Source: Escherichia phage T4
Length of the DNA stretch: 64,000 bases
Reading direction: 5' to 3' (one strand)
Sequence record: NC_000866.4
Shown piece after piece: positions 39,782 to 46,680 of the stretch. The notes under the pieces were generated by a model that saw only the letters and a program-made list of their open reading frames with translations, ran no database searches and was not told the origin of the DNA. Every line of letters starts with the position of its first letter. The stretch's first letter is position 1. The translations under genes were made by a program, and so were the position numbers.

Positions 39782-40278
39782 AAAGTTTTAATAACCTCTA
39801 CAATATCGTCTTGAGAAAGACCGTTAATTAAAATATGATGTTCAGCTGGAGATTTAGAAATTTTAAAGCATGCCTCAACATCTTCTGCCATATCCGATGC
39901 ACTACGATTTGGATTACTAATACCAAGGCGATGTTTTCCCGTCAAAGGATTAACGATGATATAGCATTTGCAGCTATTGATATGAACATTGGGTTGAGTC
40001 TGATTAATGAACACTTCACAATCATACTTAGCAAGTTGATTTTCTAAAAAGACTTTCATCTCTTCAACCGCATCAGGAAGCATATCACGGGCTTGCTCAA
40101 GACGACGATTTCGATATTCTTTAATGGTCGTTTTCCGCTTGACTTGCTTAGCTAAATCTTTCTTAAGACCAGTGATATATCCAACTCGACGATTTCCTTT
40201 GAATACAGAAATCCCATCTGTAGTATCACCGTATGCTTCAACGACCATTTCAGTAGTAATAAGTTGTAAATCCATCAT
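39772..40278 (-). CDS. alc: Alc, inhibitor of host transcription on cytosine-containing DNA
   Basis: 168-aa ORF (two consecutive ATG); lies between the spanin pair and rnlA as in T4. Confidence 0.85.
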   Translation of the reverse strand: MMDLQLITTEMVVEAYGDTTDGISVFKGNRRVGYITGLKKDLAKQVKRKTTIKEYRNRRLEQARDMLPDAVEEMKVFLENQLAKYDCEVFINQTQPNVHINSCKCYIIVNPLTGKHRLGISNPNRSASDMAEDVEACFKISKSPAEHHILINGLSQDDIVEVIKTLCM

Positions 40279-40339: not shown

Positions 40340-41927
<1,588 letters not shown>

Positions 41928-41949
41928 AATAAAATGGGCCTTGCGGCCC
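41928..41949 (-). terminator. Hairpin between nrdB and denA
   Basis: Minus strand GGGCC-GCAA-GGCCC then AUUUUAUU, immediately before the denA AUG. Confidence 0.55.
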
Positions 41950-41954
41950 ACTCC

Positions 41955-42457
41955 TTAAAAGTATTTTTTAAAACTCATCATAACTTTATCATCAACATCA
42001 TTATCAATCTGTGCAACAAGGTAAGATGACAGTTCTACTTCTTGCGGCGCGGATTGAACATTATCAGAATTAAGATATTCACGAATCCAAGGATATGGAT
42101 GTTTAACCGGAGCATCGGTAATTGGGCATGGAAGACCGCACTGTTTCATACGAGATACAGTTAAGTAATCAATAAAGCTCCACATGCTATTTGTATTTAA
42201 TCCAGGAACATCACCATCTTTAAATAAATGAACTGCCCAGTCTTTTTCCTGGCGGTTAACTTCCATGAAAATATCAACTGCTTCTTGTTCACACTCTTGG
42301 GCAATTTTAACCCATTCATCACCATCAGTACCGGATTGAAGTTGACGAATAATATATTGGGTGCCTTTAAGGTGAAGCTGTTCATCACGTGCAATGAACT
42401 TCATAATCTTGGCATTACCTTCCATGATTTCCATGTTCTTATGGAAGTTAAAGGTAC
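41955..42457 (-). CDS. nrdB: Ribonucleotide reductase small subunit, exon 2
   Basis: Continues exon 1 after a group I intron; contains the second iron-ligand motif (ARDEQLHL); boundary inferred from the E. coli R2 sequence recalled from memory. Confidence 0.8.
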
Positions 42458-43055
42458 CGTATGTTCGATTGAGCTCGCTAATTCTCAACCCGTTCTCTTA
42501 TGAACTGCTGCATGTTACCATGCAGTCCAGACTATATCACAATCCCGGAGGGATTCTCCCCATTTCGAGTCGCTTGACCCTACGTCCGAAGACTAGTCGT
42601 TGAACCTTGTTTTGCAATTGTCGCCGTGCCATCGTTTATATGTTGATGGTGATAAATCTTTCTTATCACAATATGGACAATTCAATTGAATTCTATTTGG
42701 ATTTAATTTACATCTGTCATTATGTTTTAGATAAAATCCAGGACCTTTACCAATGTGACCACAGAAATCACATGTGATTTCTTTTTGTGCAGGATGGGTC
42801 CCGTTCTTAACCATTTCTAATGTTTTTGCTGATGTTCTTTTCTTATGTTCTTCCATCAGAATCTTTAGGTATAGGTCCGTTAGCATCTATCCAAATTTTT
42901 CTATAGTTCAATTGTGCATCCTCTTAAAAGTATAATCATATTTATATTATACTAATTAAAGGTGCAAGCAAAACCTTGGCTGCTAGTTTTCCATAAAGGA
43001 CTTTCCAGCAATTAAAGGAGTTTTCGATAAACGTTACCGTTTAAAGGCGCATTTT
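42458..43055 (-). mobile_element. Group I self-splicing intron in nrdB (598 nt)
   Basis: Interrupts nrdB; shares core blocks with the td intron (CATG.ACCATGCAG..CAGACTATATC and TTTCGAGTC.CTTGACCCTAC); exon 1 ends in U and the intron ends in G at the inferred junctions. Confidence 0.8.
42593..42886 (-). pseudogene. I-TevIII: Truncated intron-encoded endonuclease remnant (I-TevIII-like)
   Basis: 97-aa ORF inside the nrdB intron with Cys/His zinc-finger-like motifs (CDFCGH, CPYCDK) but no N-terminal catalytic domain. Confidence 0.7.
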
Positions 43056-43719
43056 ACGCAAAAGATACATAAAAACGAATAGCTTCTAAGGCATTAATAA
43101 CGTGCAAACAGAGGTAAAGAGATTTCATCAGATCTCGTTTAGCTCTTTGCTCAACGTCTTTATCAGCTAGAATTAGACCTTGGTCTTTATAATATTCAAC
43201 CATGTCTTTAGCATTTTCCCATTCACGGGTTTTAACCAAGACATCATCGTAATATCGCCCAATGGACTCAGCACGTTTCATAATAGCTTCATCTAATACA
43301 ATCTCATCAAACACCTTCGATGGATCAGTATAAAGATTTCGCATGATATGAGTATATGAACGACTGTGAATAGTTTCACTAAAAGTCCATGTAGCAACCC
43401 ATGTATCAAGGCTTGGGTCTGAAATTAATGACATAAGTACAGCAGATGGCGCACGACCCTGAATGCTATCCAAAAGTGATTGATACTTCAGGTTGTTAGT
43501 AAAAATATTTTGCTGATACTGAGGAAGCTTATTAAATTGCGCAGCATCCATCATTAAGTTTACTTCTTCAGGACGCCAAAAAAAACTGATCTGCCGCTCA
43601 ATGAGTTCTTCAAATACTCGATGTCGTTGAATATCATATCGAGCTAAACCTAATCCAGAACCAAAGAACATCGGTTCATTCAAAACATCAACTGGATTTG
43701 TATTAAAAACTGTACTCAT
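43056..43719 (-). CDS. nrdB: Ribonucleotide reductase small subunit, exon 1
   Basis: Contains the first iron-ligand motif (ETIHSRSYTH) and ends ...FYVSFA plus the first nt of a split Cys codon. Confidence 0.8.
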
Positions 43720-44415
43720 TTAGAATCCTTAAATTTACATTTATCATAATGCCATCTTAAAGCATTGCCTTTATTAACTTTCTTACCACAGTGCGGGCAA
43801 GGTGGATACTCTGCTCCTTGTTTAGTTCTCAAAGAAATCAAATCACGGGTTTCTTTAGTATGAGGAACATCTCTTGTCGGAGAAATTGTACCATACATCG
43901 GATTAAGCACGCCGACTTTAGCAGCAGCTATATTCTTTTTAGCTTCTTCAGTTTTAGGCTTTCTCATCTTTTTCTTAGGTTTCTTCGCTTTTAGCCCTTC
44001 CTTTGGTTGCCGCCGATATTTTGTGTTTGGTTTCTTCTGTTAAACGCAGACCTGTTTTCGCTTTTTGACATTTTCAGTCTCGTTTCTTCAGAAATGACCG
44101 TACCTTTGCGAAATTGCGAATTTAACTTCTTTGCATGGGCATATATTTTAGAATGAACTTTATAATGACGTTTCTTAGTTCCTTTCATATTGCACATCAT
44201 GAAAAATGCGAATATAACAGATTTTACCGGATAAATCTTTGATAAAATAGCATGCGCTATAAAATGCTCTCTAGCTGTTAATTCAACTAAATTTTCTTTA
44301 TCATCAGAACCTCCCATGCATCTAGGGATTATATGATGTGTCTCTTTATATTCGGATAAAGGTTCCCGAGCCTGAGCTCGGGAAATTAGGTCGTTATAGA
44401 TTTTTTGATAATTCA

Positions 44416-46680
44416 TTACAATTTACACGCTGCACAATCATCGGCTTTAGGAGTTTCTATTTCATAATCATCAGTACCAGAACCATCACGGGTATTATGA
44501 TAATAGAAATTTTTAATGCCATAATACCATCCGTATAGCATGTCATCAATCATTATTGACATTGGAACCTTTCCTTTTGGAAAAATCTGCGGGTCATAAT
44601 ATGTATTCGCTGAAGCTGATTGACATACCCATTTCAGCATAATAGCTACCTGCGTAAGATAAGGTTTATTACCTTTCTTAGCTAATTTCCATGTATAATC
44701 ATAGAGGTCTATGTTATGCTCAATATTGGGCACGACTTGATTAAAGGAACCCTCTTTTGATTCTTTAACACTTACCGGTCCACGTGGAGGCTCGTAGCCG
44801 TTTGTACTGTTAGAAACTTGGGAAGATGACTCACATGGCATAAGTGCTGATAATGTGCTATTACGGATGCCAAATAGCTTAAGGTCTTCCCGCAGCGCCG
44901 ACCAGTCACAAACGTATTTTGGAGCTGCGATTTGGTCAATCTTTTTATTGTACCAGTCGATAGGTAATTCGCCTCGAGACCAACGAGTGTCTGAATAATA
45001 TTCCGAAGGTCCTTTTTCTTTGGCGAGCTTAATGGATGCTTTAATGAGTCCATACTGTAATCTCTCAAATAGTTCATGTGTTAAATCGTTAGCATCTTCA
45101 TAAGAAGCAAAGTTACTTGCCAGCCAAGCTGCATAGTTGGTAACACCTACACCGAGGTTACGACGCTTTTTAGCTTTTTCTGCTTCAGGAACCGGATATC
45201 CTTGGTAATCCAACAGATTATCAAGAGCACGAACTTGAACTTCTGCCAATTCATTAATTTTATCTTGGTCTTGCCAGTCAAAATTATCTAATACGAATGC
45301 AGAGAGAGTACACAATCCAATTTCAGCATCAGGGCTATTCACATCATTTGTTGGAATAGCAATTTCACAGCACAAGTTACTCTGACGAATAGGTGCCTTT
45401 TCACGAATAAACGGAGTATAGTTATTCGTATTATCAATGAACTGCACATAAATCCTTGCTGTTCCTGAACGTTCAGTCATGAGCAATTCAAATAGTTCAC
45501 GGGCTTTAATACGCTTTTTACGAATATTAGGGTCTTTTTCTGCTGCTTCGTATAATTCACGGAAACGGTCTTGGTCTTTAAAATAAGAATAATAAAGCTC
45601 GCCACCCATTTCATGCGGACTGAACAAAGTAATGTAATCGTTTTTTCCAAAACGTTCCATCATCAAATCATTCAGTTGAACACCATAATCCATATGACGA
45701 ATGCGGTTTTCTTCTACGCCTTTGTTATTTTTCAAAACGAGAAGATTTTCAACTTCCAAATGCCAAATAGGATAATAAGCAGTAGCAGCGCCGCCACGAA
45801 TTCCACCCTGTGAACATGATTTAACTGCAGTCTGAAAATGTTTCCAAAAAGGAATAACACCAGTATGGCGTACTTCACCCATGCCAATCTTAGAACCTTC
45901 GGCACGAATCATACCAACGTTAATACCAATTCCAGCGCGTTTAGAGATATATTCAACAATTGAAGCAGAAGCCTTATTGATAGACTTCAATGAATCTCCT
46001 GCCTCAATAACAACACATGAACTAAACTGTCGAGTCGGAGTACGACAACCAGCCATAATAGGAGTTGGCAATGAAATCTGTCGAGTTGATACTGCTTCAT
46101 AAAAACGGATAACATGTTTTAATCTATCAACAGGTTCATCTTGATGCAGTGCCATTCCAATAGTCATAAATGCAAACTGTGGAGTTTCATAAATTTGACC
46201 AGTGGTTTTATCTTTAACTAGATATTTTTCTTTTAATTGCATTGCCCCGGAATAAGTAAATTCCATATCCCGTTCGTGCTTAATTTTTGATTCTAAAAAT
46301 GTAATTTCTTCTGCTGAATATTTTGACAATAATTCAGGGTCGTATTTACCTGCATTTACACAATAAGAAATATGGTCAATAAATGAACGTGGTTCATACT
46401 GCCCATAAACATGCTTACGAAGAGCAAACATTAAACAGCGTGCAGCTACATATTGATAATCAGGTTCTTCAACCGAAATAGAATTCGCAGCAGCCTTAAT
46501 GACAATAGTCTGAATATCATCAGTTGTCATTCCATCACGGAGATAAGATTTAATATTTTCATATAATTCATAAGGATCTACTGATGTTCCTTCAGCTGCC
46601 CAAGATAAAACTTTAATAATTTTTTGTGGGTCAAAGCTCTGAGAAACACCACTACTTTTGATAACATTAATTAATTGCAT
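44416..46680 (-). CDS. nrdA: Ribonucleotide reductase large subunit
   Basis: 754-aa ORF with the class I active-site motif SNLCCEI; T4 NrdA length. Confidence 0.96.
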   Translation of the reverse strand: MQLINVIKSSGVSQSFDPQKIIKVLSWAAEGTSVDPYELYENIKSYLRDGMTTDDIQTIVIKAAANSISVEEPDYQYVAARCLMFALRKHVYGQYEPRSFIDHISYCVNAGKYDPELLSKYSAEEITFLESKIKHERDMEFTYSGAMQLKEKYLVKDKTTGQIYETPQFAFMTIGMALHQDEPVDRLKHVIRFYEAVSTRQISLPTPIMAGCRTPTRQFSSCVVIEAGDSLKSINKASASIVEYISKRAGIGINVGMIRAEGSKIGMGEVRHTGVIPFWKHFQTAVKSCSQGGIRGGAATAYYPIWHLEVENLLVLKNNKGVEENRIRHMDYGVQLNDLMMERFGKNDYITLFSPHEMGGELYYSYFKDQDRFRELYEAAEKDPNIRKKRIKARELFELLMTERSGTARIYVQFIDNTNNYTPFIREKAPIRQSNLCCEIAIPTNDVNSPDAEIGLCTLSAFVLDNFDWQDQDKINELAEVQVRALDNLLDYQGYPVPEAEKAKKRRNLGVGVTNYAAWLASNFASYEDANDLTHELFERLQYGLIKASIKLAKEKGPSEYYSDTRWSRGELPIDWYNKKIDQIAAPKYVCDWSALREDLKLFGIRNSTLSALMPCESSSQVSNSTNGYEPPRGPVSVKESKEGSFNQVVPNIEHNIDLYDYTWKLAKKGNKPYLTQVAIMLKWVCQSASANTYYDPQIFPKGKVPMSIMIDDMLYGWYYGIKNFYYHNTRDGSGTDDYEIETPKADDCAACKL

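What the first reader, a model, noticed from the sequence alone, without database searches (positions are those of the whole stretch)
42593..42886. Truncated endonuclease ORF inside the nrdB intron
The intron ORF is only 97 aa and retains Cys/His zinc-finger-like motifs and a basic tail but no catalytic N-terminal domain. It looks like a decaying homing endonuclease, meaning this intron is probably no longer mobile.
Basis: partly seen in the sequence, partly recalled or inferred. Interest (0 to 1): 0.35.

Follow-up and report, generated by a model that had tools for sequence, protein, structure and literature searches.

The report
Dead I-TevIII gene in T4 nrdB intron
This is the well-known broken copy of the homing endonuclease gene I-TevIII inside the self-splicing intron of phage T4's nrdB gene: an internal 491-base deletion removed its DNA-cutting domain, so it is an ordinary, already described gene remnant.

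Summary
The window is phage T4 (100% identity). The 97-aa ORF at 42593..42886 (-) is real. GenBank annotates it as "I-TevIII, defective homing endonuclease", inside the 598-nt group I intron of nrdB (42458..43055).

Aligned to the intact 269-aa I-TevIII of phage RB3, T4 lacks 491 nt. The deletion lies between imperfect 8-bp direct repeats, GAAGA[A/C]CA. It removes the HNH catalytic motif and the linker, and it shifts the frame.

So the 97-aa ORF is a chimera. Its first 13 codons are read out of frame. Its last 84 codons are the true C-terminus (residues 186-269), which carries both CX2CX12-13HX3C zinc fingers.

The native late promoter, the ribosome-binding site sequestered in an RNA hairpin, the TTG start and the first 22 codons all survive in another frame. 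That frame stops at a TAA created at the junction. Residues 25-180 are found nowhere in the 64-kb window.

Two refinements apply. The lesion is an internal frameshifting deletion, not an N-terminal truncation. And published crosses show the dead intron is still inherited at high frequency in trans, through MobE, which is encoded 0.8 kb upstream in this window.

All of this was published in 1986-2009, so the finding is already known and of low interest. A side result: other wild phages show the same and independent deletions, a visible decay series.

The parts
42593..42886 (-). Annotated 97-aa ORF ('I-TevIII, defective'). It is a chimera of 13 out-of-frame codons plus 84 genuine C-terminal codons and the stop.
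42596..42847 (-). Genuine I-TevIII C-terminal coding segment (RB3 residues 186-269). It holds the protease-resistant core, the mapped dimer interface (194-241) and both zinc fingers.
   Evidence: domain map from PMC1865063
42710..42772 (-). Zinc finger 1, CX2CX12HX3C (ORF aa 39-59)
42614..42679 (-). Zinc finger 2, CX2CX13HX3C (ORF aa 70-91)
   Evidence: resembles the MobE C-terminal finger
42849..42853 (-). Deletion junction: the surviving GAAGA core of the imperfect 8-bp direct repeat GAAGA[A/C]CA. 491 nt of the RB3-type intron (RB3 intron positions 210-700) are missing here.
42843..42911 (-). Remnant of the native I-TevIII reading frame: TTG start at 42911, 22 codons (LNYRKIWIDANGPIPKDSDGRT), then a TAA stop at 42845..42843 created by the frameshifting deletion.
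   Evidence: tblastn RB3 aa 1-24 = 42911..42840
42919..42925 (-). Shine-Dalgarno AAGAGGA of the native I-TevIII start, paired inside a hairpin (42915..42966).
   Evidence: fold, z = -2.31; model described in PMC2988022
42939..42946 (-). T4 late-promoter consensus TATAAATA, located in the loop of the hairpin that sequesters the ribosome-binding site.
   Evidence: PMC2988022
42458..43055 (-). nrdB group I intron, 598 nt. The ORF sits in the P6 loop region.
42916..43055 (-). 5' ribozyme half (P1 to the 5' side of P6), conserved in all alleles including the ORF-less ones.
42458..42621 (-). 3' ribozyme half (3' side of P6, P7-P9). It overlaps the last 9 codons and the stop of the ORF.
43056..43719 (-). 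nrdB exon 1
41955..42457 (-). nrdB exon 2
43716..44416 (-). mobE, a free-standing HNH endonuclease gene and the published trans-mobiliser of this intron. In this window it appears split into 141-aa and 83-aa ORFs by two extra bases (43978, 44062).
   Evidence: PMC2790892
43589..43606 (-). nrdB nt 114-131, the region where MobE-dependent nicks were mapped in T2. T4 has CGG at codon 42, as the paper reports for mobE-carrying phages. It lies about 540 nt from the intron insertion site.
   Evidence: read; mapping from PMC2790892

Best explanation
The ORF is the dead remnant of the HNH homing endonuclease gene I-TevIII in the P6 loop of the phage T4 nrdB group I intron.

An ancestral RB3-type intron of about 1.09 kb, encoding a 269-aa enzyme, lost 491 nt. 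The loss came from recombination or replication slippage between two imperfect 8-bp direct repeats, GAAGAACA and GAAGACCA. It removed the HNH catalytic motif (residues about 23-52) and the linker up to residue 185. Because 491 is not a multiple of three, it also shifted the frame.

Ribosomes that load at the preserved ribosome-binding site and TTG start would make a 22-residue peptide and stop at a TAA at the junction (inferred). The annotated 97-aa ORF exists only because an out-of-frame ATG 25 nt downstream happens to open the frame that, after the junction, is the true C-terminal frame.

That C-terminal piece (residues 186-269) keeps the two zinc fingers and the dimer interface. It starts 20 residues short of the smallest fragment shown to bind DNA (166-269). 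It therefore cannot cut DNA and probably binds poorly.

The ribozyme halves on each side are intact, so the intron still splices and nrdB still works. The intron cannot home by itself. It persists because splicing makes it nearly neutral, and because MobE, encoded 0.8 kb upstream, nicks intronless nrdB about 540 nt from the insertion site. Repair of that nick co-converts the intron (trans homing, published).

Shown here: the identity, the deletion endpoints, the frame structure, the loss of HNH, the retained regulatory elements, and the decay series in other phages. From the literature: lack of activity, splicing, and trans homing. Inferred: which peptides are actually made.
For: - Identity: 100% to T4 genome records, with GenBank annotation 'defective/truncated homing endonuclease I-TevIII'.
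- Deletion: the T4/RB3 alignment shows a single 491-nt gap flanked by GAAGA[A/C]CA repeats. The exact T4 junction is reproduced by deleting RB3 intron positions 210-700.
- Lost domain: RB3 I-TevIII carries EIHHKDGNRENNDLDNLMCLSIQEHYDIH and matches PF13392 HNH_3 at residues 4-48. The T4 ORF has no HNH hit.
- What survives: tblastn of RB3 I-TevIII against the whole window finds only residues 1-24 (42911..42840) and 181-269 (42862..42596), in different frames.
- Frame structure: the native frame is 22 codons then a stop, and the C-terminal frame is open for 97 aa.
- Regulation: the ribosome-binding site sits in a hairpin with TATAAATA in the loop, matching the published regulatory design (PMC2988022).
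- Intron: RF00028 scores 35.7 bits in T4. ORF-less alleles of the same intron score 68.6 and 74.1 bits against a cutoff of 50. The spliced CDS is intact.
- Decay in other phages: T4-type alleles carry further frameshifts and have lost the late promoter. Independent deletions are also seen: 504 nt in AV109, about 671 nt in SG1, and 785 nt in the ORF-less PD112.
- Literature: the T4 nrdB intron is not mobile and RB3 I-TevIII is an active dimeric HNH enzyme; fragment 166C binds DNA and 194C does not (PMC1865063). mobE-dependent inheritance is shown in PMC2790892. [quoted passage not shown]
Against: Nothing contradicts it. Three minor open points remain.

1. In the seven deletion alleles inspected, all five secondary indels fall upstream of the zinc-finger coding part and none inside it. 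AV109 shows 5 synonymous changes against 1 non-synonymous change there. This could hint at residual constraint. The numbers are tiny, several indels sit in homopolymer runs, alleles recombine, and the last 29 nt are ribozyme core.

2. Whether any protein is made from the 97-aa frame was not testable here.

3. Two carriers of the same dead allele, AV109 and 215Ecol030PP, have no endonuclease gene between nrdA and nrdB. MobE-type trans homing therefore cannot explain persistence everywhere.
Confidence: 0.95

Rival explanations
1. The remnant is not junk. The surviving double-zinc-finger and dimerisation module is translated, for example from Met11 at 42856, which lies 10 nt upstream of the stop of the 22-codon native frame and could be reached by termination-reinitiation. 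It would then act as a DNA-binding protein. It could be an autorepressor at the operator-like site that overlaps the intron late promoter. Or it could be a dominant-negative partner that poisons full-length dimeric I-TevIII from a co-infecting phage.
For: - The module keeps residues 194-241, which were mapped as the dimer interface, and both zinc fingers.
- The promoter, hairpin and ribosome-binding site are intact in T4.
- No secondary indel hits the zinc-finger coding part in seven deletion alleles. A naive probability of 0 out of 5 there is about 0.016.
- AV109 shows 5 synonymous changes against 1 non-synonymous change in that part, and in AV109 a separate 504-nt deletion fuses the native start in frame to the same module.
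- The review PMC2988022 proposes operator sites for I-TevIII.
Against: - The fragment starts at residue 186. Fragment 166C is the smallest shown to bind DNA and 194C does not bind.
- The native ribosome-binding site feeds a different frame that stops after 22 codons.
- The annotated ATG has no good Shine-Dalgarno sequence (read).
- The late promoter is lost in F26, LH2, 215Ecol030PP and SG1. Frameshifts upstream of the fingers occur in ESh36 and 215Ecol030PP. SG1 has lost finger 1, and PD112 and DCP80 have lost the whole ORF.
- T4 already carries the intron, so it is not a target of I-TevIII and has no obvious need for an inhibitor.
Confidence: 0.04
2. The apparent deletion is a sequencing or assembly artefact of the old T4 reference sequence, and real T4 carries a full-length I-TevIII.
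For: The same window does contain legacy errors. Two extra bases split mobE, and only the 1986 record X04140 shares them.
Against: The 701-nt segment that includes the 598-nt intron is 100% identical in more than 12 independent T4 genome records, including recent resequencing (KJ477684-6, MT984581, OZ209023, OL964735). The same junction is present in wild isolates from several countries.
Confidence: 0.005
3. The 97-aa ORF is a chance ORF unrelated to any endonuclease.
For: 2.5% of shuffled introns contain an ORF this long.
Against: It shows 95.5% identity over 89 aa to RB3 I-TevIII, E=2e-56. It matches positions 180-269 of PHROG 12324 at E=4.5e-61.
Confidence: 0.005

Closest known systems
I-TevIII of phage RB3 (269-aa HNH homing endonuclease of the nrdB group I intron; Eddy & Gold 1991; Robbins et al. 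2007, PMC1865063)
   Same: - Same host gene, same intron insertion site and same loop of the intron.
- Same promoter, ribosome-binding-site hairpin and start.
- The first 22 codons match RB3 (RB3 residues 1-24 align to the window at 92% identity).
- The last 84 codons are about 98% identical and include both CX2CX12-13HX3C zinc fingers.
   Different: T4 lacks 491 nt, covering codons 23-185. That is the whole HNH motif, the linker and the first 20 residues of the minimal DNA-binding domain. The frame is broken, so no catalytic protein can be made.
T4 I-TevIII 'defective homing endonuclease' as annotated in T4 genome records (X04140 'URF aa 1-97'; KJ477684; HM137666; MT984581)
   Same: It is the same object: identical sequence and coordinates.
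   Different: None.
MobE-driven trans homing of a defunct intron (Wilson & Edgell 2009, PMC2790892), and the related 'collaborative homing' of endonuclease-less introns
   Same: The window holds the published arrangement. mobE lies directly upstream of nrdB. The mapped nick region sits about 540 nt from the intron insertion site, inside the roughly 2-kb co-conversion range.
   Different: This is a property of the neighbourhood, not of the 97-aa ORF. In the window's sequence version, mobE looks split by two legacy extra bases.
Homing-endonuclease gene life cycle: invasion, fixation, degeneration, loss (general model; from my own knowledge, Goddard & Burt 1999)
   Same: The phage collection shows all stages for this one intron: 85 full-length alleles, about 30 T4-type 491-nt deletions, an in-frame 504-nt deletion, a 420-nt intron, ORF-less introns of 304-309 nt, and many intronless nrdB genes.
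   Different: In T4 the degenerate stage is propped up by a neighbouring free-standing endonuclease.

Membership tests
I-TevIII orthologue (nrdB-intron endonuclease gene) | Located in the nrdB group I intron at the same insertion site and in the same intron loop as RB3 I-TevIII | tested here: met
   The T4 and RB3 introns are collinear outside one 491-nt gap. Splice junctions are identical.
I-TevIII orthologue (nrdB-intron endonuclease gene) | Sequence orthology to RB3 I-TevIII | tested here: met
   Residues 181-269 are 95.5% identical, E=2e-56. Residues 1-24 are 92% identical in another frame. PHROG 12324 positions 180-269 match at E=4.5e-61.
I-TevIII orthologue (nrdB-intron endonuclease gene) | Two CX2CX12-13HX3C zinc fingers in the C-terminal domain | tested here: met
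   aa 39-59 and aa 70-91 of the ORF. The motif is defined in PMC1865063.
I-TevIII orthologue (nrdB-intron endonuclease gene) | Complete minimal DNA-binding domain (residues 166-269; fragment 194-269 does not bind) | tested here: not met
   The T4 segment starts at residue 186. Boundaries are from Robbins et al. 2007.
HNH (beta-beta-alpha-Me) endonuclease | HNH catalytic motif present in the product | tested here: not met
   No HNH family matches the ORF at E<=1 in Pfam or in PHROGs. The RB3 protein matches PF13392 at E=1.9e-11. Residues 25-180 are absent from the whole window.
Active homing endonuclease | Site-specific cleavage of the intronless allele and autonomous intron homing | not testable with these tools
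   The literature reports that the T4 intron is not mobile and the enzyme is defunct (PMC1865063; PMC2790892).
Group I intron (Rfam RF00028) | Covariance-model match to the catalytic core | tested here: inconclusive
   The T4 copy scores 35.7 bits, E=2.8e-7, below the 50-bit cutoff because the ORF splits the core. ORF-less alleles of the same intron score 68.6 and 74.1 bits.
Group I intron (Rfam RF00028) | Removing it restores an intact host reading frame; U before the 5' splice site and G at the 3' end of the intron | tested here: met
   The spliced product is 1167 nt and 388 aa with no stop. Exon 1 ends in T and the intron ends in G. Pfam Ribonuc_red_sm matches both exons.
Group I intron (Rfam RF00028) | Self-splicing activity | not testable with these tools
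   The intron is described as self-splicing in PMC2790892.
MobE trans-homing arrangement | A free-standing HNH endonuclease gene within co-conversion distance (<2 kb) that targets the same host gene | tested here: met
   mobE lies at 43716..44416 with a Pfam HNH hit and NUMOD3. The nick region, nrdB nt 114-131, is about 540 nt from the insertion site. The activity itself comes from the literature only.

The most novel reading that the evidence does not exclude
The surviving zinc-finger and dimerisation module (I-TevIII residues 186-269) may still be expressed. It could act as a repressor at the intron's late-promoter operator, or as a dominant-negative partner of full-length dimeric I-TevIII during mixed infections. 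That would explain why the zinc-finger coding part is intact in every deletion allele inspected, and why an independent in-frame deletion (AV109 type) produced a similar mini-protein.
Probability: 0.05. Interest if true: 0.45.

Novelty: already known. Interest (0 to 1): 0.08.

Why it matters
This locus is a textbook case, not a discovery. The T4 nrdB intron ORF was reported as a 97-aa URF in 1986 (record X04140). It was explained as a deletion derivative of the RB3 gene in 1991 (Eddy & Gold). The intact enzyme was characterised in 2007, and the persistence of the dead copy through MobE trans homing was shown in 2009.

The only added value of this check is descriptive:
- It fixes the exact anatomy in window coordinates: an internal frameshifting deletion at a short direct repeat, with a fortuitous ATG and a surviving 22-codon native frame.
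- It shows that the same deletion allele, and at least three other independent deletions at short direct repeats, circulate in present-day environmental isolates.
- Some of those isolates have no mobE next to nrdB.

Tried and rejected
- Rfam at gathering threshold on 41500..44500 found nothing. The intron appears only below threshold, because the ORF splits the core. Scanning ORF-less alleles resolved this.
- Pfam on the 97-aa ORF gave only chance-level zinc-ribbon hits.
- A PDB sequence search with full-length RB3 I-TevIII found no solved relative, so no structural comparison was attempted.
- Eddy & Gold 1991, Gott et al. 1988 and Sandegren et al. 2005 are not held in the paper library. They are cited only through the reference lists of papers that are held.
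- I first placed the native TTG start at 42898. tblastn corrected it to 42911.
- Artefact hypothesis: I considered that the deletion might be a legacy sequencing error, as the two extra bases in mobE are. I rejected this because all modern T4 genomes share the 598-nt intron.
- I did not run the large protein-database searches or a structure prediction. The identity was already settled and they would not change the verdict.
- I worked around this through DNA alignment.

Full report
**1. Identity of the window and of the ORF**

A 701-nt query around the finding is 100% identical to more than a dozen phage T4 genome records. GenBank annotates the ORF under it as "I-TevIII: defective/truncated homing endonuclease", and as "URF (aa 1-97)" in the 1986 record X04140.

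Its neighbours on the same strand are:
- nrdA (44416..46680)
- mobE (43716..44416)
- nrdB exon 1 (43056..43719)
- the intron
- nrdB exon 2 (41955..42457)
- denA and rnlA

**2. The intron**

Removing 42458..43055 (598 nt) joins the two Ribonuc_red_sm-matching ORFs into a 1167-nt, 388-aa frame with no stop, reading ...FYVSFA-C-TFNFHK.... Exon 1 ends in U and the intron ends in G.

Rfam's group I model RF00028 matches the T4 copy only below threshold (35.7 bits, E=2.8e-7, cutoff 50). The reason is that the ORF splits the core. Naturally ORF-less alleles of the same intron, in phages PD112 and DCP80 (304 and 309 nt), score 68.6 and 74.1 bits. They place the ORF insertion in the P6 loop region.

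The last 9 codons and the stop of the ORF (42593..42621) are part of the conserved 3' ribozyme half. They are retained even in the ORF-less introns.

**3. What was lost**

Phage RB3 (KM606994) carries a 1091-nt intron with a 269-aa I-TevIII. The T4/RB3 alignment is collinear except for one 491-nt gap. Deleting RB3 intron positions 210-700 reproduces the T4 junction exactly.

The endpoints are two copies of an imperfect 8-bp direct repeat: GAAGAACA at RB3 intron position 204 and GAAGACCA at position 695. One copy survives in T4 at 42849..42853.

The deleted segment encodes residues 23-185. It includes EIHHKDGNRENNDLDNLMCLSIQEHYDIH, the HNH motif. Pfam HNH_3 matches RB3 residues 4-48 at E=1.9e-11, and six HNH PHROGs match residues 4-64. 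The T4 ORF matches no HNH family.

**4.

491 is not a multiple of 3. The genuine start (TTG at 42911), its Shine-Dalgarno AAGAGGA (42919..42925) and the first 22 codons (LNYRKIWIDANGPIPKDSDGRT) are all still present. This frame now runs into a TAA at 42845..42843, immediately after the junction.

The annotated ORF starts at an ATG 25 nt downstream, in another frame. Its first 13 residues (MLTDLYLKILMEE) are therefore not I-TevIII sequence. From His14 on, it is the true frame of residues 186-269.

tblastn of RB3 I-TevIII against all 64 kb finds only residues 1-24 and 181-269. Residues 25-180 are nowhere, in any frame.

**5. What was kept**

- Zinc fingers: both are present, CX2CX12HX3C at aa 39-59 and CX2CX13HX3C at aa 70-91.
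- Published domain map: Robbins et al. 2007 mapped the protease-resistant core to residues 194-269 and the dimer interface to 194-241. They found that 166-269 binds the homing site but 194-269 does not. The T4 piece starts at 186, inside that gap. DNA binding is therefore doubtful and catalysis is impossible.
- Regulatory design: this is intact. The ribosome-binding site is paired in a hairpin (42915..42966; -22.1 kcal/mol for the folded 111-nt segment 42880..42990, z = -2.31). The late-promoter consensus TATAAATA (42939..42946) sits in its loop, as described for the three T4 intron endonucleases (PMC2988022).

**6. Mobility**

The literature states that the T4 nrdB intron is not mobile, whereas the RB3 intron homes through I-TevIII, a dimeric HNH enzyme that cuts 14 and 16 bp upstream of the insertion site (PMC1865063).

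Wilson & Edgell 2009 showed that the dead intron is nevertheless inherited at high frequency in T4 x T2 crosses, and that this depends on an intact mobE. MobE-dependent nicks map to nrdB nt 114-131. In the window that region is 43589..43606. Codon 42 is CGG, as the paper reports for mobE-bearing phages. The region lies about 540 nt from the insertion site, within the reported co-conversion range. So "no longer mobile" is true only for autonomous homing.

**7. Decay series in other phages**

Of 127 phage records matched by the RB3 intron query (two of them Pseudoalteromonas phages, only a ~90-nt partial match in the one listed), 85 cover at least 80% of it. Roughly 30 are T4-type, and a few are shorter. 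726 records match the exon flanks, so most relatives are intronless.

Wild isolates from several countries (Manna, F26, ESh36, 215Ecol030PP, LH2) share the T4-type 491-nt junction and show further damage:
- F26 and LH2 have a 2-nt deletion in the 22-codon remnant.
- F26, LH2, 215Ecol030PP and SG1 have lost TATAAATA.
- ESh36 and 215Ecol030PP carry 1-nt frameshifts.

Independent deletions at other short direct repeats also exist:
- AV109: 504 nt, in frame, between AAGAACA repeats, giving a 101-aa fusion from the native start.
- SG1: about 671 nt at AGATG.
- PD112: 785 nt between ACAATTG repeats, which is ORF-less.

This is the expected degeneration of a homing endonuclease gene once it no longer drives its own spread.

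One small oddity: none of the five secondary indels hits the zinc-finger coding part, and AV109 shows 5 synonymous changes against 1 non-synonymous change there. I treat this as too weak to overturn the remnant reading. The sample is small, several indels lie in homopolymer runs, the alleles recombine, and part of the region overlaps the ribozyme core. I keep it as the basis of the low-probability novel case.

**8. Verdict**

First, the lesion is an internal frameshifting deletion, with the native N-terminus surviving in another frame. Second, the intron is mobilised in trans by MobE. The feature has been known since 1986-1991 and was explained mechanistically by 2009. Novelty: already known. 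Interest: low.

Noticed in passing
window 43716..44416 (-), extra bases at 43978 and 44062: mobE appears split into a 141-aa HNH ORF and an 83-aa NUMOD3/zinc-finger ORF. Two single extra bases cause this. They are absent from MT984581 (continuous 232-aa MobE) and from all modern T4 genomes, and only the 1986 record X04140 shares them. They are probably legacy sequencing errors in the composite T4 reference. The window also differs from MT984581 by TA/AT (44795-6) and CG/GC (45004-5) swaps in nrdA and by C/T at 40169.
   Followed up: yes
window 43725..43799 (-) versus 42614..42679 (-): The C-terminal zinc finger of MobE (CPHCGKKVNKGNALRWHYDKC) resembles I-TevIII finger 2: 48% identity over 23 aa, E=2e-4 pairwise. 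The two neighbouring HNH endonucleases seem to share a DNA-binding module type.
   Followed up: partly
L001 4325..5056 (RB3 mobE) versus window 43716..44416: RB3 'mobE' (243 aa) shares only about the first 55 residues, the HNH part, with T4 MobE. The C-terminal halves are unrelated. This looks like domain shuffling between free-standing endonucleases at the same locus.
   Followed up: no
L013 704..2296, L014 742..2310, L015 1414..2982, L017 750..2384: In Manna, F26, LH2 and ESh36, which carry the T4-type dead intron, the nrdA-nrdB gap holds a 522-544-aa ORF instead of mobE. In the three scanned with Pfam (Manna, F26, ESh36) it has a sub-threshold Vsr-like nuclease hit (PF18741, about 21-22 bits against a cutoff of 38.2). 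It may be a Hef-type endonuclease, which the literature says also cleaves nrdB.
   Followed up: partly
L016 (AV109) and L018 (215Ecol030PP): These two phages carry a dead I-TevIII intron but have nrdA and nrdB directly adjacent, with no free-standing endonuclease between them. Trans homing by a neighbour cannot explain persistence there.
   Followed up: partly
L009 437..742 (AV109; also AV115 and AV118 by coverage): An independent 504-nt in-frame deletion between perfect AAGAACA repeats fuses the native TTG start and 21 codons to the zinc-finger module, giving a 101-aa ORF.
   Followed up: yes
L011 (PD112), L012 (DCP80), L010 (SG1): These are shorter alleles of the same intron. ORF-less versions of 304 and 309 nt are bounded by ACAATTG repeats that flank the ORF in RB3. 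A 420-nt version keeps only finger 2. The ACAATTG repeats could mark either ORF loss or the original ORF insertion.
   Followed up: partly
one search hit H100, Pseudoalteromonas phage pYD6-A 16993..17079: An 86.5% match to about 90 nt of the intron's 3' core lies inside a gene annotated 'ATPase' in an unrelated marine phage. It may be a related group I intron.
   Followed up: no
one search hits H156-H160 (PSD2001, NHEP10, F2, vB_YenM_P8, pzk-kv8): 17 phage records match the double-zinc-finger module at below 60% identity; the five listed (37-42%) lie outside the nrdB intron. Four of those five are annotated 'homing endonuclease', so the module is reused with other endonucleases.
   Followed up: no
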